Virus record (IMG/VR): IMGVR_UViG_3300014613_000027
Location: 6,487-70,486 of that record
Reading direction: 5' to 3' (one strand)
DNA from: a virus
Lineage: Duplodnaviria > Caudoviricetes
Length of the DNA stretch: 64,000 nucleotides
Shown: positions 28,409 through 51,213 of the stretch, piece after piece
How the letters are laid out: every line of letters begins with the position of its first letter
Position numbering within the stretch: position 1 is the stretch's first letter
Notes under the pieces: generated by a model
Told to the model about the DNA's origin: nothing
What the model saw: only the letters and a program-made list of their open reading frames with translations
Databases searched by the model: none
Position numbers and translations under genes: made by a program

Positions 28409-28506
28409 AGGTGGAGTGATGAACTACATCATTTGTAGCAAATGTGGCGATAAAACATACTATAGAGATATGCAAATAGTCATACAAGATGGATGGGTGT
28501 CTGTAA

Positions 28507-28950
28507 TTGATAAAGAGGGAAAGCCTTGTTATCTGTGTCCAGATTGTGCAGACAGTATACTCAAAAAGGGTAAAAGGGGGAAGTAAGGTGGTTAAGTATA
28601 CTGAGTGGATAATGACTAATGTACCCTATAATTGTTATGGGCAATGTAGGGAACGAGTTACTGAAATGCAAAAAATCTTTAACGAGTTAACTGCTGTGCG
28701 GGGGCATTATTATTGTCCTGTATGGGGTAAACGTGAACATTGGTGGTTGGTGGATAAAGATAATGAAATTATTGATCCTACAGCTATGCAATTTCCTAGT
28801 AAAGGTCTTGGAATATATGAGCCTTTTAAAGAAGGTAGTGCTGAGCCTACTGGTATTTGTATGAATTGTGGAGAGTATTGTTATGAAGGTAGGAGTAGTG
28901 CGTGCAGTGAAGTTTGTGATGCTGAGATTAAAGAGTATTATGGGATTTAA
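28507..28950 (+). CDS. Hypothetical protein, possible transglutaminase/papain-like Cys-His-Asp fold (start uncertain)
   Basis: YGQC...EHWWL...IIDPTA spacing. Confidence 0.4.
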   Translation: MIKRESLVICVQIVQTVYSKRVKGGSKVVKYTEWIMTNVPYNCYGQCRERVTEMQKIFNELTAVRGHYYCPVWGKREHWWLVDKDNEIIDPTAMQFPSKGLGIYEPFKEGSAEPTGICMNCGEYCYEGRSSACSEVCDAEIKEYYGI

Positions 28951-29259
28951 TTGAAATCTGGAGGTGAAGTGGTGAAAATTACAATAGATGTTGATATAGA
29001 AAATAATGAAGGAACGGACAGTCCTTGGTGGATTATTATAGATCCCAAACAGAATTTTAATACTAATGAGAGAGGTGTTTATAGTATAGCTGGCATGATT
29101 ACTGGGCCTTTCTTCTCAAGGGTTAAAGCTCAAGCATTCCTTGAAAGAACACGATACAATTTTAGTCAGCATGCGAAGGTTTATTGTCATAGTGGTTGTT
29201 ATTCTCAAGAGTACCGAAATGCAATAAAACAAAACAAACCACCCCAGGAGGTGAAATGA
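28951..29259 (+). CDS. Hypothetical protein
   Basis: 102-aa ORF. Confidence 0.6.
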   Translation: MKSGGEVVKITIDVDIENNEGTDSPWWIIIDPKQNFNTNERGVYSIAGMITGPFFSRVKAQAFLERTRYNFSQHAKVYCHSGCYSQEYRNAIKQNKPPQEVK

Positions 29260-32960: not shown

Positions 32961-34260
32961 ATCAATTTTACAAGATCGTCTTTAGATTTCCCGTAGTGGG
33001 TTGGGTTAGGATTACTAGTTAGTTGAAGTTTAGCAAAAGTATTTAGTAAGGAAGAGATGATCAAGGCCCATAAAATCAGATTGTACCCTAATAATAAGCA
33101 GGAGACTTATTTTAGGAATGCCTGTGGAGTTAAGAGATTTGCTTATAATTGGGCTTTGTCTGAATCTCGTAGACTTTATGAAGAGGGGGTTAAGACCTCG
33201 GGGTATGATCTTTCTAAAAGACTGAATGCTATTAAGCGAGAAGAATTTCCTTGGATGTATGATGTTTCTAAGTGGGCCTCCCAAAAAGCTGTTCACGATG
33301 CATTTGAGTCTTTGAAAAAGTGGTGGAACCCTAAGTTGGGGAATCAAGCTCCCCGTTTTAAGAAAAAAGGAAAGTGCAAGGATTCTTTTTATTTAGGTTC
33401 TTCTCACATTAAAGAGAGAGGTGATCGTTTTTATATTCCGAAGTTAGGATGGGTCAAAATGGCCCAAGAACTTCGTTTTGAAGGGAAGATATTATCTGCT
33501 ACTGTGAGTAGGGTAGCAGATATGTGGTTCGTATCAATTTCTATTGATACACTTATAAATCCAATACCTTCTGATAGTCCTAATATTATAGGTATTGATG
33601 TCGGCATAAAATCTCTTGCTATTACTTCTGACGGAGAAGTTTTTGAAAACCCTAAAGCACTAAAGAAGAATGAAAAAAGGCTTAGACTCTTACAAAAATC
33701 AGTATCCCGTAAGAAAAAAGGTTCTAACAATAGAAAGAAAGCAGTTTTTAAACTAGCTAAACAACATTATAAAGTTTCTAATATCCGCAAAGATGCCTTG
33801 CACAAGGCCAGTACTGCGATAACCAAGAGTGCAGGTACTATATGTATAGAGGATCTTAATGTAAGTGGGATGTTAAGAAATAGAAAATTATCTAAGTCAA
33901 TCTCAGATGCTTCTATGTCTGAATTCCTTAGACAAATTGAATACAAATCTAAATGGAATGGTTCCATTGTATTTAAAGCAGATAGATTTTATCCCAGTTC
34001 TAAGATGTGTTCTTGTTGTGGAACTATTAAACATGATTTGAAATTATCAGATCGTGTTTATAAGTGTTCTTCTTGTGGACTAGAACTAGATAGAGATCTG
34101 AATGCTGCTATTAATTTGAAACAACTCGCTGTGAGTTACACAGAGAGTATAAACGCTTGTGGAGATGTAAGCTCTGGCTCTAATTTTATTGGGGTGAAAC
34201 TATTATCTATGAAGCAAGAAAAGGGCCGCTATGTTTGATTTTTATCAGGATAGTTCAAGT
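32960..34260 (+). mobile_element. Solo-TnpB IS element (no tnpA); probable omegaRNA overlapping the tnpB 3' end (~34120-34260)
   Basis: TnpB has no adjacent transposase. The 3' sequence AACGCTTGTGGAG...ATGAAGCAAGAA resembles the conserved omegaRNA region. Element ends are not firmly defined. Confidence 0.55.
33057..34238 (+). CDS. tnpB: RNA-guided endonuclease TnpB (IS200/IS605/IS607-type)
   Basis: HKIRLYP N-terminal HTH, RuvC IGIDVGI / IEDLNV / DRDLNAAINL, Zn finger CSCCG..CSSCG. Confidence 0.92.
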   Translation: MIKAHKIRLYPNNKQETYFRNACGVKRFAYNWALSESRRLYEEGVKTSGYDLSKRLNAIKREEFPWMYDVSKWASQKAVHDAFESLKKWWNPKLGNQAPRFKKKGKCKDSFYLGSSHIKERGDRFYIPKLGWVKMAQELRFEGKILSATVSRVADMWFVSISIDTLINPIPSDSPNIIGIDVGIKSLAITSDGEVFENPKALKKNEKRLRLLQKSVSRKKKGSNNRKKAVFKLAKQHYKVSNIRKDALHKASTAITKSAGTICIEDLNVSGMLRNRKLSKSISDASMSEFLRQIEYKSKWNGSIVFKADRFYPSSKMCSCCGTIKHDLKLSDRVYKCSSCGLELDRDLNAAINLKQLAVSYTESINACGDVSSGSNFIGVKLLSMKQEKGRYV

Positions 34261-38747: not shown

Positions 38748-40598
38748 AAATCAAGTATCAATCAAAGAAGAAAAGCTGAGTGATGGTTCTATAGCTTATA
38801 ACGTTATAGTTATATCTGATGACAATGATTTCGAGATGGTAATTTACTGTGTGGATAAGAAGGCTGCGGAGAATATAAGCATGGCTTTATTCAATGGAGC
38901 ATTGAACTACGAGATAAGTAAACTTTAAAAGGAGAAAGACAATGGCTGAGAGAAGTAAAGGAACTTGGACAGAAGATGAGCATCGAGAACTGGTGAGACT
39001 GTGGAATCATCAATTAACTAGTGAAACTGAAGCTGAAAAGCTAAATTCAAAGTTTAAGAGAGATATGGGGTCTCGTTCATGGGATGTTCGAATAGTGAAA
39101 GCAGTAGGCCGCGAGGAGTATGATGTTATTATGAAGAGGAAGAAGAAAAACCCGCAACCAGATCTTCCTAATGTTGAGAAAATTGAAGTACCTGATGATA
39201 GGTGGAATTCTATGGAGGCAAAACAACAGAAAAAAATTGAGGCAAATCCAACTAGGTTAGCTATAGATTTTAATAGAATAGTTGAAGTGTCTCTCACTGC
39301 TGGAGTTGATCGTTATGTAGAAAAATATATTATGCTTTCAGAATACACTAAGATCCTAACCGAGAATGAGAGCCTCCAGAGGAAGCTTGAGAAATTTGAG
39401 GAGATGGAGAGTTTTATGGAAGGCTATAAAAAGTTTTTAAGAAAACTTGGGTCAGTGGAGGAGTTTAGTCCTAAAGTAGTAGAGGGATAGCTGATGACTA
39501 AATTCGAAGAATGGAAAATTCAATTCGAATCTACTAAGGTTATAGTTCGAAGTAATGAGAATGAGCAATTCGAGGTAGGTGAGCTTATAGGTTATGAAAC
39601 TATAGGCAGTAATGAATTTCCTTTAGTATTAATTAATGGGAAGCCTTTTGTATCTTTGGGTATAGTTATACCCTGGTCGAGGGAGATGGAGTTCTTTTTG
39701 AATTCTTTAGAACCTAAGAAGCAATGGGAGATACTCAGTAGTATAGTGATAGCTATTGGGATTAATAGGGAGTAGAGAAATGAAACTTTGGTTAATATTT
39801 CAGGATGAGAACGATGATTATGACACTTTTGATTCTGCTGTAGTCGCAGCAGAGACCGAGGAGCAGGCTAAATCTATTCACCCTTATGGTAGTGATGCCT
39901 GGTCTTCCAGGAATTCAGATACCTGGGCTTCTTCTCCAGATAAAGTTACAGCCAAGTATCTCGGTGAAGCATACGGAGATATAAAGAAACCAGGAGTTAT
40001 TCTTGGATCTTTCAATGCAGGTTAAGAGGTAAAGATGGAAATTAGAACAAAGGTAAAACTTTCACCTATGAGAAAAGAATCGGAAAATCTTAATATTCTA
40101 GTGGGTTTTGATATGGGTTGGGGTAATGGTTATATAGGAGTTCCTAAAGAGCATCCTTGGTATGAAAAGTATTATATGGATATAGAAAATGAATATGATG
40201 TGGATATTCATGGCGGCCTTACATACAGTGGTTTTGAAAATGGTGATAAGGGTTTTTGGTGGGTAGGCTTTGATACAAGTCATGTTGGGGATACTTTAAG
40301 AGATTGGCCTAGAAGTAGAGTTGAAGAAGAAGCACAGCGTCTTCAAAGAATAGCTATAAGTGTAATTAAGGAATAAGGTTAACTAATGTTCAACTGGCTT
40401 CTAAATAAGCTTCGAGGTAATTTTACTATTGAGTGGCCTTCAGATGAGGAGTGGTCATGCAAGAGGAAGATTTGGTATCGGACAAGGTTAGCTGCCGAGA
40501 AAGCTTATATAGAGATGAGAAAGAGAGGAACTCTCGATCATGAAGTTGAAGCTTATAAATGTAGATATTGTGGTAGGTGGCATTTAGGAGGAATCTAA
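38740..40598 (+). other. Run of small hypothetical CDSs: 38740-38928, 38942-39490, 39494-39775, 39780-40025, 40035-40376, 40386-40598
   Basis: Packed + strand ORFs. 39780 (YDTFDSAVVAAE) and 40035 (GNGYIGVP..HGGLTYS..WWVGFDT) look like widespread phage families. Confidence 0.65.
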
Positions 40599-40600
40599 AA

Positions 40601-41827
40601 ATGAAGATTGAAAAATTAACAGAAGAGCAAATAGCTAAGTTTCCTGAGTATCGGGATAAATGGTTAAAAATAGGACTTCAAACATCTGAATCTTTTGATT
40701 TCAAATTAGCTAAGCAGGCAGCAATTGAAGTATATAAATGTGTTGGAATGAAGGAACCTGAGATATTTATTAATTTAGGTAGTCCTTTAGAAGGTTGCAT
40801 CGGATCTTATTTATTAAATCAAGTAGGGAATCAAGTATGGAATCAAGTAGAGGATCAAGTATGGAATCAAGTAGGGAATCAAGTAGGGAATCAAGTAGGG
40901 AATCAAGTATGGAATCAAGTAGGGAATCAAGTAAGGGATCAAGTAGGGAATCAAGTAGGGAATCAAGTAAGGAATCAAGTAGGGAATCAAGTAAGGGATC
41001 AAGTATGGAATCAAGTAAGGAATCAAGTAAGGGATCAAGTAGGGAATCAAGTAGGGAATCAAGTAAGGAATCAAGTAGGGAATCAAGTAAGGGATCAAGT
41101 ATGGAATCAAGTAGGGAATCAAGTAAGGGATCAAGTATGGAATCAAGTAAGGAATCAAGTAAGGAATCAAGTAGGGAATCAAGTAAGGGATCAAGTAGAG
41201 GATCAAGTTTATAAATGTGGTTATGGTTTACAGGATTCTAGTTGGTTATCATTCTATGATTTCTTTAAAAATGAGCTACACTTAGAATGTTGTAATAAAC
41301 TTAATGGACTAATGGAGCTTTCTAAACATTCTGGTTGGTGGTGGCCTTTTGAGAATGCTGTTATATTAACACCATTTCCAACTATATTAGTACGAGATGA
41401 TGAATTTAGATTACATTGCGAAAATGGTCCGGCTTTGAAATATCCGAGTGACTTTGCAATTTATTCTTGGCATGGTGTAAGAGTTCCTTCTGAGTGGATA
41501 GAAAATCCGGAGGATCTAGATCCTAGTAAAGCATTAGAATGGGAAAACCAGGAGCAGAGAAGGGCTTTATGTGAAATAATAGGATGGGATAGAGTATTAA
41601 ATACTCTTGAATGTAAAACAATACATACTGATGAGAAGGGAGAATTAATCGAAACTTCTAACATAGATGATGGTGATGATGTAGCTAGGTTTGTTAAAGT
41701 TATAGATCCCAGCACAGATAGAAGGTATGCTCTTAGGGTGCCCCCAGAAATAAATACAGCAACTAGCGCGGTTGCATGGACATTTGGAGTAGAAGAAGAT
41801 ACCTATCAACCAACACAGGAGAGTTAA
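40601..41827 (+). CDS. DUF6745-like phage protein with (N/D)QV(G/R/W) tetrapeptide repeats
   Basis: [16 protein letters not shown]-terminus; C-terminal [10 protein letters not shown]...[10 protein letters not shown]...WHGVRVP...[12 protein letters not shown]. Confidence 0.7.
40817..41212 (+). repeat. Coding tandem repeat, 33 x 12 bp (consensus AATCAAGTARGG)
   Basis: 33 xQVx units counted in the protein. Confidence 0.95.
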
Positions 41828-43473: not shown

Positions 43474-43575
43474 TCCTACAGTATCCCACTTAATTTAAAC
43501 TAAATGCATTTATTTCACCTGAGTATATTGACAGGTGTCTGATGGTGGGTTACATATTGAGTATGAGATGCGCAA
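43474..43575 (+). promoter_or_regulatory. Sigma70-type early promoter with long upstream element, copy 4
   Basis: TTGACA 43528-43533, 17 nt, TACATA 43551-43556; same upstream element and GAGTATGAGATGCG leader. Confidence 0.85.
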
Positions 43576-43595: not shown

Positions 43596-44655
43596 ATGAA
43601 AAAAGAAACAATAATAAACGAAATCAGTGAAATGAAAATCGGGCACACTGGCAGCAAATGGGGCGTGATAGTTTCGAGACACGGCGCAGATTGTTTCGAA
43701 CTTGGTACGTGGGGTGTAGCAGAGAACCGGTACACTGCAAAAGAGGCGGCGGAAAAAATAATTGATGTAAATGGAAGGTAGGCGATAATGAGATGGGAAG
43801 ATATAAGTATGCCTTTATTAGACAGACCTCTTGAGTCTCAGTTACATCTTTCCCAGAAAGATGCCAAGGTCCTCTCTAAGGCTTGTGCAGTTCTGGAGAG
43901 TATGAAGAAGCATCTGGAGGAAGAATGGGGTGAGGATGATGCCTACGATGTACCAGAAGCGCAACCTTGGATAATGGCTGCATGCTATTTAGGTGAAGCT
44001 CTTGAGGATCTTAATGTACGATATACTGGTAGGAAGCCTTATGCATTTATCAAGTTTCCTCCGAGAGAGGATAAGGAGAAGTAAAATGAAGTGTGAATAC
44101 TGTGATCAAAGGCCAGCGAACAACACGCACTCCAGTATTGAGGATGCCCATTTCTGCGATTCCTGTTTTGAGGGTGTTTTAACTAACTACTATCATGTTG
44201 GAACCGTTGAAGAAGCTTTAGTTCTTCAAGAGAAAGAGAATGATGCATGGTGGGGGTCTTATAATCAGACTGAGGAGAAGTAAAATGAAAATTTGTATAA
44301 TCGCAGGTGTAATGATATTCGGTTGGCTTCTTCCTGAAGTAGCTAAGGTTATGTCTCCTCATAAAGTAGAGGTACCAATTCTAGTGAGTATTCTAACTTT
44401 TTTAGGTTCGGGCCTGATTGCAACTGGAATACTTTATAGTTAGGGGAAGTAATGAGATTAGTAACAGTAGAAATCAAGGTAGCTCGGGAGCTGATAATTT
44501 ATAAACTGAACGCTTCGGACAACGAAAGCTCGGACTCCATTAAGTCCAGGGCTTTATGTAAGATGGCAAAGAGGTTCGGTGAGGCTGGAGGCCAGATGAT
44601 CATGTTTAACAAGGGAGTTGAGATTACAGATGATGTGCCAGTAGATATTGGCTAG
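43596..44655 (+). other. Run of small hypothetical CDSs: 43596-43781, 43788-44084, 44086-44283, 44285-44443, 44452-44655
   Basis: Packed ORFs downstream of promoter copy 4. Confidence 0.6.
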
Positions 44656-44718
44656 AGGAGTAGAGGGAAATCCTCATAAAGTAATTTACAGACAAACAAC
44701 AAAGAGGAGAATAAAACA

Positions 44719-45318
44719 ATGCCATCAGGATACACAGATTATATTAACAAGGGAGTTTCGTTTGACGATTTTGTTTTGATCTGCGCCAGGGCTTTCGGAG
44801 CGCTTATCAATATGAAGGAGGATTCTTTTGATAAACCAATACCGAAGCGTTTGGAACCTTCGAGTTATCATAAAGATGAGTTAGAAAAGGAAGAGGTTCG
44901 ACTAGAATCCTTGTTAAAGATGAGTAATGAACAAGGGGCTATTGAAGCAAAGGCCGAGTGGAAAGAAGCTATGGCTTATTATGAGGAGCGATTAATAGAG
45001 AACAAGAAACAAAAAGAAGGTTATGAATCTATGCTAGCAAAGGTTCGAGATTGGACTCCTCCAACGGAGGATCATCGAGGACTTAAGCAATTTATGATTG
45101 AGCAGATTACTCAGTCTATCAGTTTTGATTGTAGTTATGAACCCGATAAACCTTCTTCGGAACCTTCGAGCGGTGCCGAGTGGTTAAAACTAAAAATTAA
45201 AAATGCTAAAGAGGATATTAAATATCATTCAGAAAATTATACTGAAGAAGTTGCTAGGATTGAAGAGCGGAATAAGTGGATAGAGGATCTGAGGGGTAGT
45301 TTATACAAAGAAAGTTAA
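44719..45318 (+). CDS. Conserved-looking phage hypothetical protein (helical/coiled coil)
   Basis: MPSGYT...FVLICARAFGALI N-terminus; AGGAG RBS. Confidence 0.7.
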   Translation: MPSGYTDYINKGVSFDDFVLICARAFGALINMKEDSFDKPIPKRLEPSSYHKDELEKEEVRLESLLKMSNEQGAIEAKAEWKEAMAYYEERLIENKKQKEGYESMLAKVRDWTPPTEDHRGLKQFMIEQITQSISFDCSYEPDKPSSEPSSGAEWLKLKIKNAKEDIKYHSENYTEEVARIEERNKWIEDLRGSLYKES

Positions 45319-45350
45319 GGTTGTCAATAACCAAAAGAAAGGTAAAGGAT

Positions 45351-45974
45351 ATGAAAACTGTAAAAGCGAAATGTAAGTTAATTAGGGAGATGTTGGGAAC
45401 TGCTGCTGCAGATCCTGAAGTGCATGAGAAATTTATTGCCAGCAAGAGTGCAGACAAGAATAAGATTAAGGAGGAGATGGCTGCTCTTTCTGCCGCAGAG
45501 CTTATTGAGAAGTCTTTGACTGTTTTTCCACGGGATGAAGACGGCGATCCTTTTATTTATGATTATCAGGTGAGGGGTCATATCAAGGATTTCTTAGGTG
45601 GTGAAGTAGAGTTTCAAGATCTTTATATTAAGGTAGGGACGAAGGAATATAAGTTTAGTAAGTGGACTTATAAGCGTCTTGTAGATAACTTTATCTTTGT
45701 TACTCCCCGAAAGATAAAGTTGAGGCTACCTGAAGGGAAGGACATGGGTCTTTGTACAAGACCTTTAAGAGCAGAGACTCAACAAGGTCCAAGGATAGCT
45801 CTAGCTACTAGTGAGACAATTCCTGAAGGGACTGAATTTGAATTTGAAGTCCATTGTCGTCAACCAGAATTATTTGATTTGATACCAAAAGCTCTAGATT
45901 ATGGAGCTTTAAATGGACTTCTTCAGTGGAGGAATTCGGGAAAGGGTACTTTTACCTGGGAAGAGCGAAGTTAA
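45351..45974 (+). CDS. Stand-alone Cas7/RAMP-like protein
   Basis: RAMP pattern: beta1 VKAKCKLIREMLGT, PFIYDYQVRGHIKD (cf. P.IPGSSLKG..R), SETIPEGTEFEFEV, and Gly-rich loop DYGALNGLLQWRNSGKGTF. No other cas genes nearby. Confidence 0.7.
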   Translation: MKTVKAKCKLIREMLGTAAADPEVHEKFIASKSADKNKIKEEMAALSAAELIEKSLTVFPRDEDGDPFIYDYQVRGHIKDFLGGEVEFQDLYIKVGTKEYKFSKWTYKRLVDNFIFVTPRKIKLRLPEGKDMGLCTRPLRAETQQGPRIALATSETIPEGTEFEFEVHCRQPELFDLIPKALDYGALNGLLQWRNSGKGTFTWEERS

Positions 45975-46478
45975 GGTAAAGTTTGGTAAAGTTAGGGTAA
46001 AGTTATGTTTTGGTTTCGTACGGTAGAGTTATGTTTTGGTTTCGTATCGGTACGGTATGGTTCAGTGAGGGTATTGCCTAGTGTAGTCCTGTTCTGGTTA
46101 TGTGAAGTGAAGTCTTGGTAGAGTACTGTCGGGTGATGTGGCGGTAAAGTCACGTACGGTAACGGTAAAGTACTGTGAAGTGAGGTCCAGGTTGAGTCTG
46201 GTAACGTGATGTGGAGGTATAGTTTTGTGGAGTATGGTCCAGGTTGAGTGAAGTTTTGTGATGGTAAAGTCCGGTAACGTGATGTGTGGTGTTGGTAGAG
46301 TTATGTGGTGTCAAGTTTTGGTCTCTGTAACGTGAGGTGAGGTAGAGTAAGGGTAAAGTGCGGTTATGTCTCGTACTGTCTTGGTGAGGTGAAGTTCTGC
46401 ACGGTAATGTTTGGGTAAAGTGAGGTAGAGCTACGTTTGGTAAAGGTGTGGTTCAGTGAAGTTTTGTGAAGGCAAAGT
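45967..46478 (+). ncRNA. Non-coding periodic NNNGY array, putative guide-RNA array for the adjacent RAMP protein
   Basis: Parsed by hand into 98 contiguous units all ending GT (94) or GC (4): 76 pentamers and 22 hexamers. No track ORF covers it on either strand. Confidence 0.7.
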
Positions 46479-46660
46479 ATATTAAAGGATATGAGGATAA
46501 AAAATGAAACTAACAGATGAACAACAAAGGAAGATAAACAACAAAAAGGAGAATGAGATGAAGACGATTAAAGAAGATGGCGAGATGATTTTTTTAGAAT
46601 CAATAATAGCAGGAAGACCGACAACGTAAATTATCAAGGATTCAATAGGAGGAAAAGGAA

Positions 46661-47354
46661 ATGAAAAATGTAATATCAAGATGGTGGCATGAATGGAATG
46701 ATCTTTTTATAGCTTTAGCCATTGCGTGTATAGTTGTGGGAATTATTATATGGCTTGGAATTGGGTCTTCCGGCAACCTGAATTATGTAAAAGAGCGCTC
46801 TGAAATAAGATTTCAGGAATTGAACTATGAAATCATTGGCTATGAAGGATACCGGTTTGGCTTCTGGGGCTACAATGATTTCGGCGGTGCCCATGTTTGG
46901 TATCTATTAAAGAAAAATCCAGATAATGGAATTATCTACAAGGGTTCACTGCAGCGATGGGGTGATGAGATACACCTAATGCAGCTTAAGGCAGTAGACG
47001 CTATTAAGCCATAACGAAAGATAAGGTAAGGGAAACATAATGAATAAATTTCTAAAAGGGCTAGGTATTTTATTTTTGGGTGCTGTAGTTATTGTTTGGG
47101 GTGGTTTTGTTTTACAAATTCTTTGGAGTTGGTTTGTTTCTTCTCCGTGGGACATTAGACAGATTACTTTAACAGAAGCAGTGGGTATAGATTTAATCAT
47201 TTCGTTTTTGACTCAACAATTCAATTGGGGTAATTGGGATGAAAGTGTTGAGCTTTCTGATAATTTAACTAAGACGGAAGTACGTATTATACACATGATT
47301 ATTCAACCTGCATTATTTTTATTTGTTGGGTGGGTTGTAACATTCTTTATGTAA
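46661..47354 (+). other. Two small membrane-protein CDSs: 46661-47014, 47040-47354
   Basis: Both contain hydrophobic helices. Confidence 0.6.
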
Positions 47355-47392
47355 AAAGTTTATACCTAGATACTCAAAAGAAAGTTAAGTTT

Positions 47393-48871
47393 ATGAAATT
47401 AACAGATGAACAACAAGCGATAATTGACGCTACTCCTCCAGAAGGTGGATCTCTCCTCGTTACAGCTTTCGCTGGTACGGGGAAGACCTTCACCTTAGAG
47501 AAGTATGCTGAAGCTCGCTCAACTAATAGAATTTTATACGTAGCTTTTAACAAGGCTATACAGCTCGAAGCCGAGAGGAAGATGCCTTCTAATGTAATGA
47601 GTCGAACTACTCATTCTTTAGCTTATAGAGTCTTCGGTGCGAAGTATCAGAAGGCTGGGCTCTTCCAGTTTAGTGTACCTCTTTGGAGGATTTCTAAACT
47701 ATTAGGCTTGTGGAATAATATAGTTGTAGCAAACTTTGTTGATACTATACTAAAAAAGTTCTTATCATCTCCTGATAGAGATATTACTGAAGCTCATTTT
47801 ACTCAGGATATTCTCGATTATTATGAAGGGGCTCTGAGACCTCCTCCACTTATCCAGATGGCTAAGAGAGTATGGGAGGATATGAAGAGTATGCAATCGA
47901 AGTCTTTACCAATGACTCACGATGGGTACTTAAAGTTATATCAACTATCAGAGCCAGTGTTAGATTTTGACTATATTATGCTCGATGAAGCTCAGGATAC
48001 TACTCCTTGTGTCTGGGACATTATGAAGAAGCAGAAGTGTAGAAAAATTGTTGTAGGCGATCCTTTTCAAGCTATCTATGAATGGCGAGGAAGTATAGAT
48101 GCCTTAAGTAAGGTTGAAGATGCCGAGAGCTTGTATCTCTCCAAGAGCTTCAGGTTCGGCCCAGAGGTCGCCAAACTAGCAACTACCCTCCTGCAAAGGT
48201 TCTTGGGTGAGAAGAGAGCGGTGAGCGGCCTGGAGTCGTTGAGCACAGAAATACATACAACAGGGTATCCTGAGAGCCCGACTATAATAGCCAGGGGTAA
48301 TAACTTTATCTTCAGATCTGCTGCTTCCGAGTGTGGGAATGGCGAAAGGACCTTTGGCTTTGTCGGTGGAGATCATACTAACTATAGATTTCAATCGGTT
48401 CTCGATGTATATCATGTTTATAATGATGAGCCAGATATGGCCAAGGATTCTCTCATTAAGTCTTTCAAGAGTTATGAAGAGCTTATAGAATACTCGGGGA
48501 AGGTTCATAGTTATGAATTAGAGAGTGCTATTCAACTGGTTGATGAGTATGGATCGAGGATACCTAATATTATTAAAGAAGTTAAAAAAAGAGATGTAGG
48601 CGCTCAGTATTCCGACTTAACTTATACAACAGGACATAAAGCCAAGGGTTTAGAATTTCCAGTGGTTCAATTAGCTCCTGATTTTTCAGGAATGATTGAG
48701 GCACATAAGGATGATCCTGGTGCAGGGATTATTAACTCTAGTGAAATGAATTTGCTCTATGTAGCTATTACTCGGGGTACTGAGAAGCTCTTCATTTCAC
48801 CTACTATTAAAGATTTCATTGAAAATGGGTATTGTACTGGTAATTTTCCAATATGGAAGGAAGTGAAGTGA
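47393..48871 (+). CDS. UvrD/Rep-like superfamily 1 helicase
   Basis: LTDEQQ Q motif, AFAGTGKT (Walker A), MLDEAQD (Walker B), VGDPFQAIY, SFRFG, TGHKAKGLEF, LYVAITRG. Confidence 0.9.
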   Translation: MKLTDEQQAIIDATPPEGGSLLVTAFAGTGKTFTLEKYAEARSTNRILYVAFNKAIQLEAERKMPSNVMSRTTHSLAYRVFGAKYQKAGLFQFSVPLWRISKLLGLWNNIVVANFVDTILKKFLSSPDRDITEAHFTQDILDYYEGALRPPPLIQMAKRVWEDMKSMQSKSLPMTHDGYLKLYQLSEPVLDFDYIMLDEAQDTTPCVWDIMKKQKCRKIVVGDPFQAIYEWRGSIDALSKVEDAESLYLSKSFRFGPEVAKLATTLLQRFLGEKRAVSGLESLSTEIHTTGYPESPTIIARGNNFIFRSAASECGNGERTFGFVGGDHTNYRFQSVLDVYHVYNDEPDMAKDSLIKSFKSYEELIEYSGKVHSYELESAIQLVDEYGSRIPNIIKEVKKRDVGAQYSDLTYTTGHKAKGLEFPVVQLAPDFSGMIEAHKDDPGAGIINSSEMNLLYVAITRGTEKLFISPTIKDFIENGYCTGNFPIWKEVK

Positions 48872-49592: not shown

Positions 49593-50251
49593 ATGAAGTC
49601 CTGTAAAATATGTGGAAGCTTTGCGATAAATCCGCATCTTCATGACAGGGTGCCTGGTGAGGACTTGGACCTCTGTGATGTGTGCTACTGGCGAGCTAGG
49701 GCTAATGAAGCCAGGATGGAAATAATATGTAACAGTGTTTTCACAACCAAGGGTGATATACGGCTAATAGAATTAAAAAAAGCCTATGCCAAAAAGAGAA
49801 AATGGCGTGGTCTGTTCGAAGGGGAGGGAGATGAATAATGAACAAGATAAATCCAAAAATAGTGAAGGGTGAGCCAGAGTGTAGCGAAGAATGCCCATAT
49901 TTTAAAAGGATAGGGTTTGGAAATAAGGATACTCTCTCAAAGAGTTATTATTGGTGTGATGAAATGAAAGACAAAACCAATGATGAACTTCCTTGCATTC
50001 CTGGTCTGCGCCAGCAAAGGGATGGTAAGGAAGATGAACTTATCGAGTTAACGGGTAGGTTCAATACCGCCCTAGCAGCGAAGAAAGAAGCAGAGAAGGA
50101 ACGAGACAGGTTTATCGAAGACTGCGATTCACTTAAGCGTTCAGTTACTAAGTTAAATTCTGAGAAGCTTACTCTAGTGAATACATTGGAAAAGGTGCAG
50201 CAGGAACTAGGTGAAGTATTTGATTCTCTACATATTGAAGTGGTACGATGA
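49593..50251 (+). other. Hypothetical CDSs 49593-49838 and 49838-50251 (the latter a paralog of cassette gene 3)
   Basis: MNKINP....GEP.C...C...C.P.LR..RD is shared with 26939-27385. Confidence 0.65.
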
Positions 50252-51213
50252 AAGACTTAGCAGACATAGGTTTCTATACTTTATCGAATGATCGAGCAGC
50301 TAGAGTGTCTGCTTCAACTCGCTTAGAGCGTTGTGAGCTTCTCCTCACGGATGCTTGTAATTTTAAGTGTCCTTATTGTCGTGGAGCTAGAGAGGGCTAC
50401 GAGGGCACGATGCCTTTCTCTGAAGCTTCTCGAATAGTAAAGCTTTGGACGGACGATAATCTTAGAAACATTAGATTCTCTGGAGGTGAGCCTACTCTAT
50501 ATAAAAATCTTGTTAAGTTAGTAGCTCAGGCCAAAGACGGAGGAGTTGAGCGTTGTGCTATCTCTACTAATGGTTCTGCTGATTGGGAACTCTACAAGGA
50601 GTTAATAGAAGCTGGAGTTGATGATTTTTCAGTATCTTTAGATGGCGGTTGTTGCGCTACAGGTCAGAAGATGAATGGTGGTATTTCTGGAGTCTGGGAT
50701 AAGGTTATAAGTAATATTGCGAGAATAAGTAAGTTAACATACTGCACCGTAGGAATGGTATTTACAGAAGATAATGTTAATGAATGTTTAGATGCCGTTA
50801 GATTTGCTGTAGGTTTGGGAGTATCAGATATTCGAGTAATACCTTCAGCTCAATATAATAAGGCTTTGACAATGCTTGCCGATCTGGAAGGGTTGAATAG
50901 TTTTCCAATACTCAAGTATCGAATTAATAATATAAGAAATGGAAGACATGTTCGAGGTATTGAGAAAGATGATAAGACTAGGTGTAGGTTAGCTCTAGAT
51001 GATATGGCTGTTATTAAAGATGAACATTTTCCTTGTATTATCTACTTAAGAGAAGGCGGTGATCCTATAGGTGAGGTAGGACCTAATATGCGAGCTGAAA
51101 GACTAGAGTGGGTAGAAAATCATATTCCAGCAGAAGATTCTATTTGTAGTAAGAATTGTTTGGATGTCTGTGTTGATTACAACCACGTTGCTGGAAGAGG
51201 AGGATCTATATAA
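50248..51213 (+). CDS. Radical SAM enzyme (MoaA/NirJ-like)
   Basis: CNFKCPYC (CxxxCxxC), RFSGGEPTL, ISTNG, SVSLDG, C-terminal Cys cluster. Confidence 0.9.
   Translation: MKDLADIGFYTLSNDRAARVSASTRLERCELLLTDACNFKCPYCRGAREGYEGTMPFSEASRIVKLWTDDNLRNIRFSGGEPTLYKNLVKLVAQAKDGGVERCAISTNGSADWELYKELIEAGVDDFSVSLDGGCCATGQKMNGGISGVWDKVISNIARISKLTYCTVGMVFTEDNVNECLDAVRFAVGLGVSDIRVIPSAQYNKALTMLADLEGLNSFPILKYRINNIRNGRHVRGIEKDDKTRCRLALDDMAVIKDEHFPCIIYLREGGDPIGEVGPNMRAERLEWVENHIPAEDSICSKNCLDVCVDYNHVAGRGGSI

What the first reader, a model, noticed from the sequence alone, without database searches (positions are those of the whole stretch)
45351..46478. Stand-alone Cas7/RAMP-like gene fused to a periodic GY-array: candidate non-CRISPR RNA-guided phage system (VIPR-like)
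Seen: a 207-aa ORF with RAMP-style motifs (PFIYDYQVRGHIKD, ETIPEGTEFEFEV, C-terminal GLLQWRNSGKG loop). Its stop codon is already part of a 512-nt non-coding array of NNN-GY units. No Cas1/2/3/5/6 genes or repeat-spacer array are present in the window. Established: Cas7-family RAMPs polymerise along a guide RNA with a fixed nucleotide step. Inference: the invariant GY positions are protein-binding scaffold and the variable bases between them form a discontinuous guide that reads a gapped DNA target, possibly against competing phages or to silence genes. From memory, not verified here, this matches the architecture reported for phage VIPR systems (RAMP protein plus GGY/NN-repeat RNA). This array uses a relaxed NGY-NN unit. 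The nearest upstream promoter copy (43528) lies ~1.8 kb before the gene, so the locus is probably expressed early.
Basis: partly seen in the sequence, partly recalled or inferred. Interest (0 to 1): 0.97.

Follow-up and report, generated by a model that had tools for sequence, protein, structure and literature searches.

The report
Phage VIPR locus: RAMP plus guide array
An uncultured groundwater phage carries a small Cas7-like protein gene followed directly by a 512-base array of five-letter RNA repeats. It is a new member of the VIPR family of phage RNA-guided DNA-binding systems published in 2026, not a new kind of system.

Summary

- **The gene.** ORF 45351-45974 (207 aa) folds as a single-RRM Cas7-type RAMP. 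Its best solved-structure matches are Csm3, Cmr4 and type VII Cas7 (E about 1e-7).
- **Link to a tested Vipr.** It has the same order of structural elements as the experimentally studied Vipr of phage SUSP1. It also has a homologous G-loop (QWR against DWR; profile-profile E 1.5e-5).
- **The array.** Its stop codon lies inside an array (45967-46478) of about 98 units on the gene strand. There are 78 NNNGT pentamers and 22 mostly NNNGGT hexamers, giving a 5.2-nt period. The array is C-poor and unstructured, with no tail and no ribozyme.
- **Family.** The family is very large (1,913 clusters at 50% identity). In about 70 of 80 homologous viral loci an equivalent array sits directly beside the gene and nowhere else nearby.
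- **What is absent.** I found no vap accessory gene, no other cas genes and no CRISPR array.
- **Open questions.** Targets and the exact reading rule remain unresolved. One metatranscriptome holds only part of the array from this locus, which is a weak hint of a stable RNA.

VIPR was published in 2026 preprints, and this scan has already filed VIPR loci on at least 16 other genomes. This is therefore a new member of a known kind. The part not yet characterised in the text I could read is its branch grammar: two fixed bases per unit and periodic GGY hexamers.

The parts
45351..45974 (+). vipr gene: a 207-aa single-RRM RAMP (Cas7-like). It has an N-terminal helical insertion (about residues 20-56), a thumb hairpin (about 133-157) and a G-loop, GLLQWRNSGKG (189-199).
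   Evidence: ORF and translation. AlphaFold2 model with pLDDT 82 and pTM 0.76. Foldseek against PDB gives only Cas7-family top hits, E 2e-7 to 1e-5. hhalign to the SUSP1 Vipr family.
45967..46478 (+). vrRNA array: about 98 tandem units on the gene strand. There are 78 NNNGT pentamers and 22 mostly NNNGGT hexamers. The mean period is 5.2 nt and blocks are commonly 26 nt. It fills the whole gap between the vipr stop codon and the ribosome-binding site of the next gene.
   Evidence: No Rfam family. No fold beyond shuffles (z = -0.9). No inverted repeats.
46272..46423 (+). The part of the array found at depth about 12 in contigs of a groundwater metatranscriptome library. The vipr ORF and most neighbouring genes had no cover in that run.
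   Evidence: run X7. These are contigs only, so this is a weak hint of a stable RNA. The contigs carry two 'go back 130 nt' joints: 46410 to 46281, and 46423 to 46294.
43524..43556 (+). Nearest upstream copy of a five-copy promoter-like repeat (TTGACA, 17-nt spacer, TACATA). It is the candidate promoter of the + strand gene run that contains vipr and the array.
   Evidence: No convincing terminator lies between it and the array. Function is inferred.

Best explanation
This is a VIPR (Viral Interference Programmable Repeat) system of an uncultured groundwater phage. It consists of a stand-alone vipr gene and one long, tail-less vrRNA array.

**Shown here**
- The protein has the Cas7-type RAMP fold, with a G-loop and a thumb.
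- It is a distant homolog of the SUSP1 Vipr.
- The gene and a G-anchored array of about 5.2-nt period are linked throughout a very large family found largely in virus contigs (548 matches in IMG/VR).

**Inferred by homology with the SUSP1 system (preprints)**
- The array is transcribed with the gene, probably from the promoter-like site at 43528.
- One Vipr protomer binds each unit and flips out the constant G-Y.
- In this branch W193 and R194 replace SUSP1's W178 and R179, which hold G2 and Y3. SUSP1's G1 readers H17 and D177 are T17 and Q192 here, which fits the first G being free to vary.
- The filament presents the variable bases for gapped pairing with double-stranded DNA.
- Binding silences genes of competing phages, satellites or prophages.

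**Not known**
- Whether two or three variable bases per unit are read.
- What the periodic GGY hexamers do. They may be a once-per-turn register or nucleation unit, or a boundary between guides.
- What the targets are.
For: **Fold**
- The AlphaFold2 model has pLDDT 82.
- Every top PDB match is a Cas7-family subunit: type VII Cas7 8z4j_J at E 2e-7, Csm3 9ash_F and 6xn3_F, Cmr4 6s6b_I, all at probability 1.0.
- The best sequence hit in the PDB is a Cmr4 RAMP.
- The top BFVD match is a 39%-identical phage protein that its depositors named 'Cas system-associated RAMP superfamily protein'.

**Link to an experimentally characterised Vipr**
- I located the SUSP1 Vipr at KT454805.2 28474-29061(-). Its residues H17, K33, R138, D177, W178 and R179 match the cryo-EM paper.
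- hhalign of a 72-sequence profile of this family against the SUSP1-family profile gives probability 79.5% and E 1.5e-5. The aligned part covers the last strand, helix, G-loop and strand.
- A full-length alignment to the SUSP1 protein also lines up the N-terminal helical segment.
- The predicted secondary-structure elements occur in the same order in both proteins.
- The same five viral proteins are the top five BFVD neighbours of both models.

**Array**
- The constant G-Y and three variable positions are shown.
- SUSP1's own vrRNAs contain AGT and TGT units among the GGT units.
- The paper lists YNNNG, NNNGG and NNNNG variants and 'staggered' arrays.

**Linkage**
- About 70 of 80 IMG/VR homolog loci have a G-periodic array of period 5.05-5.3 abutting the gene, upstream, downstream or both. 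Within the +-4 kb flanks such arrays lie only at or near the gene (two loci, L011 and L019, have theirs 1-3 kb away). Four GenBank gut-phage loci show the same.
- Between related arrays the anchor G changes at 0.027 per site, against 0.07-0.10 for the other positions.
- A related strain (run X6) carries a different cassette inside the array.

**Context**
- The source is an IMG/VR virus record. No cas operon or CRISPR array was found.

**Expression hint**
- Metatranscriptome contigs cover 46272-46423 but not the ORF.
Against: - Sequence similarity to the tested type II Vipr is weak. A narrower profile gave only 38% probability, and the supported alignment covers 47 residues.
- The thumb arginine R138 has no clear counterpart in the alignment.
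- No vap gene is present or conserved.
- No 3' tail or pseudoknot and no ribozyme were found. How the array is cut into guides is therefore unknown.
- The 6-nt units break the strict 5-nt register of the characterised system.
- I could not assign a VIPR type, because the paper's figures and tables were not available.
Confidence: 0.88

Rival explanations
1. The locus is a Vipr-like protein-RNA particle, but with a different output. It may read RNA rather than DNA. Or the long tail-less array may act as a sponge or decoy that soaks up the Vipr of competing phages, rather than guiding its own protein to targets.
For: - The closest solved structural relatives (Csm3, Cmr4, type VII Cas7) are RNA-targeting backbones.
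- No DNA target was found.
- The October 2026 preprint describes solo vrRNAs used as decoys or redirectors.
Against: - The array sits beside an intact gene that keeps every family-invariant residue.
- The only members tested experimentally bind double-stranded DNA.
- My target searches had very little power, so a blank says little.
Confidence: 0.07
2. The array works as DNA, not RNA. A G every 5.2 bp is half a B-DNA helical turn, so it could be a bent or protein-coated structural element, an origin, or a packaging site. On this view the RAMP gene is a neighbour for other reasons.
For: - The period of 5.2 nt equals half of 10.4 bp.
- There is no RNA secondary structure and no Rfam family.
- RNA evidence is limited to contigs from one library.
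Against: - The periodicity is strand-specific: G+T-rich and C-poor on the gene strand. The same holds in SUSP1, where the RNAs were sequenced.
- The array moves with the RAMP gene across about 70 of 80 otherwise unrelated phage loci, on either side of it.
- The partner protein is an RNA-binding fold.
Confidence: 0.03
3. The locus is a decaying remnant of a CRISPR type III or type VII locus captured by a phage, with no present function.
For: - The fold resembles Cas7.
- A TnpB/Cas12f-like gene lies elsewhere in the window.
Against: - There is no second RAMP, Cas10, Cas6 or repeat-spacer array.
- The protein keeps all 25 columns that are invariant in the 40-sequence alignment.
- The anchor G is present in 77 of the 78 pentamers and, at the matching position before Y, in all 22 hexamers.
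- The family has 1,913 clusters with the same architecture.
Confidence: 0.02

Closest known systems
VIPR type II system of Escherichia phage SUSP1 (Vipr, Vap1 and vrRNAs; bioRxiv 10.64898/2026.04.26.720920, 10.64898/2026.04.26.720927, 10.64898/2026.10.15.759431)
   Same: - It is phage-borne.
- The RAMP is about 200 aa, with one RRM, an N-terminal helical insertion, a thumb hairpin and a G-loop carrying an aromatic-Arg pair (DWR against QWR).
- Non-coding arrays of tandem units of about 5 nt lie on the gene strand, directly beside the gene, with a constant G-pyrimidine and variable bases.
- There are no cas genes and no CRISPR array.
   Different: - Only G-Y is fixed here, not G-G-Y. The two SUSP1 residues that read the first G (H17, D177) are T17 and Q192 in this branch.
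- About every fifth unit is a 6-nt NNNGGT, so the period is 5.2 rather than 5.0.
- There is one continuous array of about 98 units, with no conserved 3' tail or pseudoknot and no separate RNAs of about 100 nt visible in the DNA.
- There is no vap1 or any other conserved neighbour.
- Sequence similarity is detectable only profile against profile.
VIPR variants with YNNNG / NNNNG repeats and 'staggered' arrays (named in the methods and supplementary legends of 10.64898/2026.04.26.720920)
   Same: The pentamer T-NNN-G read in the other register is the YNNNG variant. The hexamers shift the 5-nt register by one base, which may be what 'staggered' describes.
   Different: The relevant figures and tables were not available to me. 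I could not check whether this clade, its hexamer punctuation or its type number is covered there.
Cas7-family backbone subunits of class 1 CRISPR effectors (Csm3, Cmr4, type VII Cas7)
   Same: They share the RRM core, G-loop and thumb. They are the best structural matches (E 2e-7 to 1e-5, TM about 0.5-0.57). They polymerise along a guide RNA with a fixed step.
   Different: - Those subunits use a 6-nt step with 5 paired bases, inside multi-protein effectors (Cas10 or Cas8, Cas5, Cas6, small subunit).
- They are encoded next to repeat-spacer arrays and adaptation genes. None of these is present here.

Membership tests
VIPR (Vipr protein plus vrRNA) | A minimal single-RRM RAMP protein of about 20 kDa with a G-loop and a thumb | tested here: met
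   The model has pLDDT 82. Its elements are b1, helical insertion, b, helix-1, a hairpin, a helix, a thumb hairpin at 133-157, helix, G-loop at 189-199 and a final strand. All top PDB matches are Cas7-family.
VIPR (Vipr protein plus vrRNA) | Homology to an experimentally characterised Vipr (SUSP1) | tested here: met
   hhalign of A4 against A2 gives probability 79.5% and E 1.5e-5 over the C-terminal 47 residues including the G-loop. The full-length alignment has E 0.013. The order of elements is the same. The top five BFVD neighbours are the same for both models. Support is moderate, not strong: the narrower profile gave 38%.
VIPR (Vipr protein plus vrRNA) | An adjacent non-coding array of tandem pentanucleotide repeats with constant GGY (or a related consensus) and hypervariable positions | tested here: met
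   There are 78 NNNGT and 22 mostly NNNGGT units at 45967-46478. Between related arrays the G changes three to four times less often than the N positions. The consensus is the relaxed YNNNG kind, not GGY/NN.
VIPR (Vipr protein plus vrRNA) | Gene-array association conserved among homologs, mostly in viral genomes and outside CRISPR loci | tested here: met
   About 70 of 80 IMG/VR loci carry an abutting array. The source record is viral. No cas operon or CRISPR array was found.
VIPR (Vipr protein plus vrRNA) | A vap accessory gene next to vipr (typical; the paper also reports stand-alone vipr genes) | tested here: not met
   Clustering of same-strand neighbour ORFs across 90 loci found no gene shared with the window's neighbours. 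No neighbour cluster was present in more than 27 of about 85 loci. The UvrD-like helicase at 47330-48868 is not conserved next to homologs.
VIPR (Vipr protein plus vrRNA) | The array is transcribed and processed into vrRNAs that bind Vipr | tested here: inconclusive
   Contigs of one metatranscriptome library cover 46272-46423 at depth about 12, while the ORF has none. Contigs cannot show RNA ends or strand, and binding is not testable here.
VIPR (Vipr protein plus vrRNA) | Gapped (1-nt skip) recognition of DNA targets in competing mobile elements | tested here: inconclusive
   Nine skip models gave no excess over shuffled arrays in 0.7 Mb of own and related DNA. Exact 9-10-unit NNx scans of IMG/VR, GTDB genomes and JGI metagenomes gave 10 hits in all, and their flanking units matched at chance level.
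VIPR type II (SUSP1 clade) | vrRNAs of 9-16 YNNGG repeats, each capped by a conserved structured 3' tail, plus vap1 | tested here: not met
   There are no inverted repeats, no structure beyond shuffles, no repeated tail motif and no vap1 homolog.
Class 1 CRISPR-Cas effector (type III or type VII Cas7) | Encoded in a cas operon with other effector subunits and a repeat-spacer array | tested here: not met
   Pfam and PADLOC scans of 64 window ORFs listed no Cas10, Cas5, Cas6, Cas1 or Cas2. Tandem Repeats Finder listed no CRISPR-like array. Only 40% of the genome is estimated to be in hand.

The most novel reading that the evidence does not exclude
This very large Vipr branch may use a guide grammar different from the published GGY/NN code. 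On this reading the guides are modules of one canonical NNNGGY hexamer followed by four to five relaxed NNNGY pentamers, roughly one filament turn of 26-31 nt. Three free bases per unit might then be read by a rule other than 'two bases, skip one'. The 130-nt (5 x 26) go-back joints seen in the RNA library could then reflect module-wise processing or permuted RNAs rather than strain variation.
Probability: 0.25. Interest if true: 0.65.

Novelty: new member of a known kind. Interest (0 to 1): 0.38.

Why it matters
VIPR is a recently described RNA-guided DNA-recognition system proposed to predate CRISPR. Only type II has been dissected in detail in the papers I read.

This locus belongs to a branch with 1,913 clusters at 50% identity. 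It fixes only G-Y, leaves three bases per unit free, inserts a GGY hexamer about once per five units, and lacks both a tail and an accessory gene. Working out how such an array is cut and read would show whether the 'two bases, skip one' code is general. It would also give a protein-only minimal platform.

The pairing of T17/Q192 with a free first base gives a direct, testable structure-to-code prediction: these replace SUSP1's G1 readers H17 and D177.

As a discovery in itself it is not new. The kind of system is published, and this scan has met it repeatedly.

Tried and rejected
- **Pfam and PHROGs on the protein.** Nothing meaningful came up.
- **Rfam on 44500-47500.** No family matched, so there is no hammerhead-punctuated array.
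- **Consensus promoter and terminator scan.** Counts were at shuffle level.
- **vap search.** No conserved neighbour was found. The commonest neighbour clusters in other loci look like ordinary phage replication or recombination genes (SSB-like, SMC/Rad50-like ATPase, XRE HTH) and have no counterpart in the window.
- **Self and nearby targets.** Nine reading models (NN with 0-3 skips, NNN with 0-2 skips, N2N3, N1N3) were run against the own genome and all fetched loci. All were at shuffled-control level. The period-5 models were inflated only by leftover array-to-array homology.
- **Exact NNx scans.** Three IMG/VR scans gave 0, 2 and 1 hits. One GTDB scan gave 5 hits, all in gut or rumen MAGs. 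One JGI metagenome scan gave 2 hits. Flanking units matched at 12-50%.
- **The best case, L089:5280-5305.** It matched 25 of 30 guide bases over 15 units, in frame, with the skipped base at the wobble position, in a baseplate-like ORF. I rejected it as a finding. It is marginal after selection (roughly p 0.05), the contig has no second site, and it is unrelated to this phage.
- **Complex prediction with three copies of the protein.** The tool returned no verdict. This counts neither for nor against oligomerisation.
- **Reaching the SUSP1 family through the 1.84-billion-protein search.** The 150 listed hits were all close family members, so the tail of the list could not be inspected.
- **VIPR type number.** The supplementary figures and tables are not held.
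- **RNA run X7.** Parts of the locus without cover say nothing either way.

Full report
**1. What is in the sequence**

Homologs start at the same methionine, and AAGGA lies just upstream, so the ATG is the start.

The stop codon TAA is the first three bases of the unit TAAGGT. From 45967 to 46478 a dynamic-programming parse gives about 98 units:
- 78 pentamers NNN-G-T, with G in 77 of 78 and T in 74 of 78;
- 22 hexamers, 21 of them NNN-GG-T;
- usually 3-5 pentamers between hexamers, which gives blocks of 21, 26 or 31 nt.

The Fourier peak is at 5.23 nt, and autocorrelation reaches 0.55 at lag 26. This is the strongest approximately 5-nt periodicity in the window: 5.9 against a 99th percentile of 2.85. 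It is the only such region in the 70-kb record.

The strand is G+T-rich with 9% C. It has no inverted repeats, no Rfam match, and folds no better than shuffled sequence (z = -0.9). The array ends at the ribosome-binding site of the next + strand gene.

**2. The protein is a Cas7-type RAMP**

Pfam and PHROGs give nothing. The best sequence hit in the PDB is a Cmr4 RAMP at E 0.22, aligned over the first conserved block.

An AlphaFold2 model built on 40 homologs has pLDDT 82 and pTM 0.76. Every leading Foldseek match in the PDB is a Cas7-family backbone subunit: type VII Cas7, Csm3, Cmr4 and Cas7-11 domains, at E 2e-7 to 1e-5 and probability 1.0. In BFVD the top hit is a 39%-identical phage protein already labelled 'Cas system-associated RAMP superfamily protein'.

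**3. VIPR is a published system, and this protein is related to its type example**

Three 2026 preprints describe VIPR. Their main points:
- A Vipr RAMP of about 20 kDa polymerises on vrRNAs made of GGY/NN pentamers.
- The filament reads double-stranded DNA by a 'two bases, skip one' rule.
- It silences competing phages and satellites.
- Seven types exist. The authors name repeat variants (NNNGG, YNNNG, NNNNG), staggered arrays, ribozyme-punctuated arrays, and six vap genes.

I located the SUSP1 locus in KT454805.2. The 195-aa protein at 28474-29061(-) has exactly the residues named in the cryo-EM paper (H17, K33, R138, D177, W178, R179). GGT-NN arrays flank it.

Comparison of the two families gave the following:
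- hhalign of a 72-sequence profile of the window's family against a 30-sequence SUSP1-family profile gives probability 79.5% and E 1.5e-5. The aligned part covers the last strand, helix, G-loop and strand.
- A narrower profile gave 38%.
- A full-length alignment to the single SUSP1 protein (E 0.013) also lines up the N-terminal helical segment.
- A model of the SUSP1-type Vipr (pLDDT 94) has the same order of elements as the window's protein.
- Its top five BFVD neighbours are the same five viral proteins as for the window's model. They include the 39%-identical member of this family, at TM 0.63 and E 3e-8.

In the G-loop, SUSP1's D177-W178-R179 aligns with Q192-W193-R194. SUSP1's H17 aligns with T17. 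In SUSP1, W178 and R179 hold G2 and Y3, while H17 and D177 read G1. This branch therefore keeps the residues for the two bases that are constant in its array, and has replaced those for the base that is free. That is an inference from an alignment, not a test. The thumb arginine R138 has no clear counterpart.

**4. The gene-array pair is a family trait**

The family has more than 250 proteins in the word-indexed search.

Of the 80 fetched viral loci, about 70 have a G-periodic array (period 5.05-5.3) abutting the gene. It may lie upstream, downstream or on both sides. Within the +-4 kb flanks such arrays lie only at or near the gene; two loci, L011 and L019, have theirs 1-3 kb away. Four GenBank gut-phage records show the same.

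Across 71 distinct arrays there are 4,919 pentamers to 1,084 hexamers, most often with 4-5 pentamers between hexamers. Hexamers favour GG before the pyrimidine. In several nearer relatives the hexamer is a near-constant AAAGGC.

Between related arrays the anchor G changes at 0.027 per site, against 0.07-0.10 for all three N positions and the pyrimidine. SUSP1's own vrRNAs already contain AGT and TGT units.

**5. Context**

The window is 64 kb of a 70.5-kb IMG/VR virus record estimated to be 40% complete. Its DNA occurs in groundwater metagenomes.

Pfam and PADLOC scans of 64 ORFs show RecA, a TnpB/Cas12f-like protein (33057-34235), a radical-SAM viperin-like protein, a UvrD/GajB-like helicase (47330-48868), methylase, homing endonucleases and RusA. 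They list no Cas1/2/3/5/6/10. Tandem Repeats Finder listed no repeat-spacer array.

No neighbour of vipr is conserved across homolog loci, and none of the window's neighbours resembles the commonest neighbour clusters. This is a stand-alone vipr. The paper notes that some Vipr genes stand alone.

There are five exact copies of a 12-mer against 0.01 expected, with TTGACA, a 17-nt spacer and TACATA at 43528-43556. No convincing terminator lies before the array. Co-transcription is plausible but inferred.

**6. Expression hint and strain variation**

Within 44000-48000, contigs of one groundwater metatranscriptome library (X7) cover only two places: 44000-44223, and 46272-46423 inside the array (depth about 12, identical sequence). 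The vipr ORF is not covered. This fits a stable array-derived RNA. However, contigs cannot show ends or strand, and DNA carry-over cannot be excluded.

Those contigs contain two joints that both go back 130 nt (5 x 26), 46410 to 46281 and 46423 to 46294. They also contain one strand-switch chimera. Possible causes are a strain with a duplicated block, reverse-transcriptase template switching on an abundant repeat RNA, or permuted RNA. I cannot tell which.

A 90-95% related strain (X6) replaces 112 nt of the array (46137-46248) with 33 nt of other NNNGT units. Array content therefore turns over by cassettes.

**7. Targets and code**

These remain unresolved. Nine reading models gave no excess over shuffled arrays in the own genome and all fetched loci.

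Exact 9-10-unit NNx patterns also cover an NNN rule with no skip. They gave 3 hits in IMG/VR, 5 in GTDB genomes and 2 in JGI metagenomes, with flanking units at chance level. The one marginal case (L089) has no second site and no relation to this phage.

Three questions stay open:
- whether the third variable base is read;
- whether target spacing changes at hexamers;
- whether the hexamers mark guide boundaries, or a once-per-turn register. The SUSP1 filament has 5-6 protomers per turn.

**8. Verdict**

The kind of system is published, and this scan has already filed VIPR loci on at least 16 other genomes. Several of those show the same G-Y plus three-variable-base grammar.

This locus is a new member of a known kind. 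The residual interest is the uncharacterised grammar of its branch:
- two fixed bases per unit;
- periodic GGY hexamers;
- no tail;
- no accessory gene.

Noticed in passing
window 33057-34235 (+): A 393-aa TnpB/Cas12f-like protein: PADLOC Cas12u4 at 8e-80 and Cas12f at 5e-79. A window ORF also matched Pfam OrfB_IS605 and Cas12f1-like TNB; that ORF was not identified individually but is presumably this one. This is a second, unrelated RNA-guided-nuclease-type gene in the same phage, 12 kb upstream of vipr.
   Followed up: partly
window 46272-46423 (RNA run X7): Metatranscriptome contigs carry two 'go back 130 nt' joints inside the array (46410 to 46281, and 46423 to 46294; 130 = 5 x 26), plus a strand-switch chimera. 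Strain duplication, template switching and permuted RNA were not distinguished.
   Followed up: partly
window 46137-46248 (DNA run X6): A 90-95% related groundwater strain replaces 112 nt of the array with 33 nt of different NNNGT units, while the flanks stay alignable at 90-99% identity. This is cassette-like turnover of array content.
   Followed up: no
L009:1040-1640, L012:3650-4000, L014:4580-4884: In nearer relatives the periodic hexamer is a near-constant AAAGGC (or AATGGC), recurring every 5-7 units. It looks like punctuation between short variable modules. In the window the hexamers keep only GGT.
   Followed up: partly
window 22803, 31083, 36169, 43524, 49520 (+): There are five exact copies of TATATTGACAGG (0.01 expected) within a longer conserved promoter-like block: TTGACA, a 17-nt spacer and TACATA or TATATT. 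Three copies also share about 60 nt upstream and a common leader.
   Followed up: partly
window 40817-41208 (+), inside ORF 40577-41827: A 12-nt tandem repeat of 32.7 copies at 89% match (unit AATCAAGTAGGG), in frame. It encodes a long tetrapeptide repeat in a 416-aa protein with no PADLOC hit at E <= 1e-8.
   Followed up: no
window 50248-51210 (+) and 47330-48868 (+): A radical-SAM protein with weak similarity to prokaryotic viperins (PADLOC pVip at 4e-15), and a UvrD/GajB-like SF1 helicase, both just downstream of the VIPR locus. Neither is conserved next to vipr homologs.
   Followed up: partly
window 44160-44223 (RNA run X7): The only other RNA-library cover in the 4-kb stretch is 44000-44223. 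It includes a snap-back contig that switches strand at 44160, which may mark an RNA end or a hairpin.
   Followed up: no
L089:5280-5305 (+) (IMGVR_UViG_3300010885_008762): This was the best gapped match to array units 76-90: 25 of 30 guide bases, in frame, with the skipped base at the wobble position, in a baseplate-like ORF. I judged it a chance hit after selection.
   Followed up: yes
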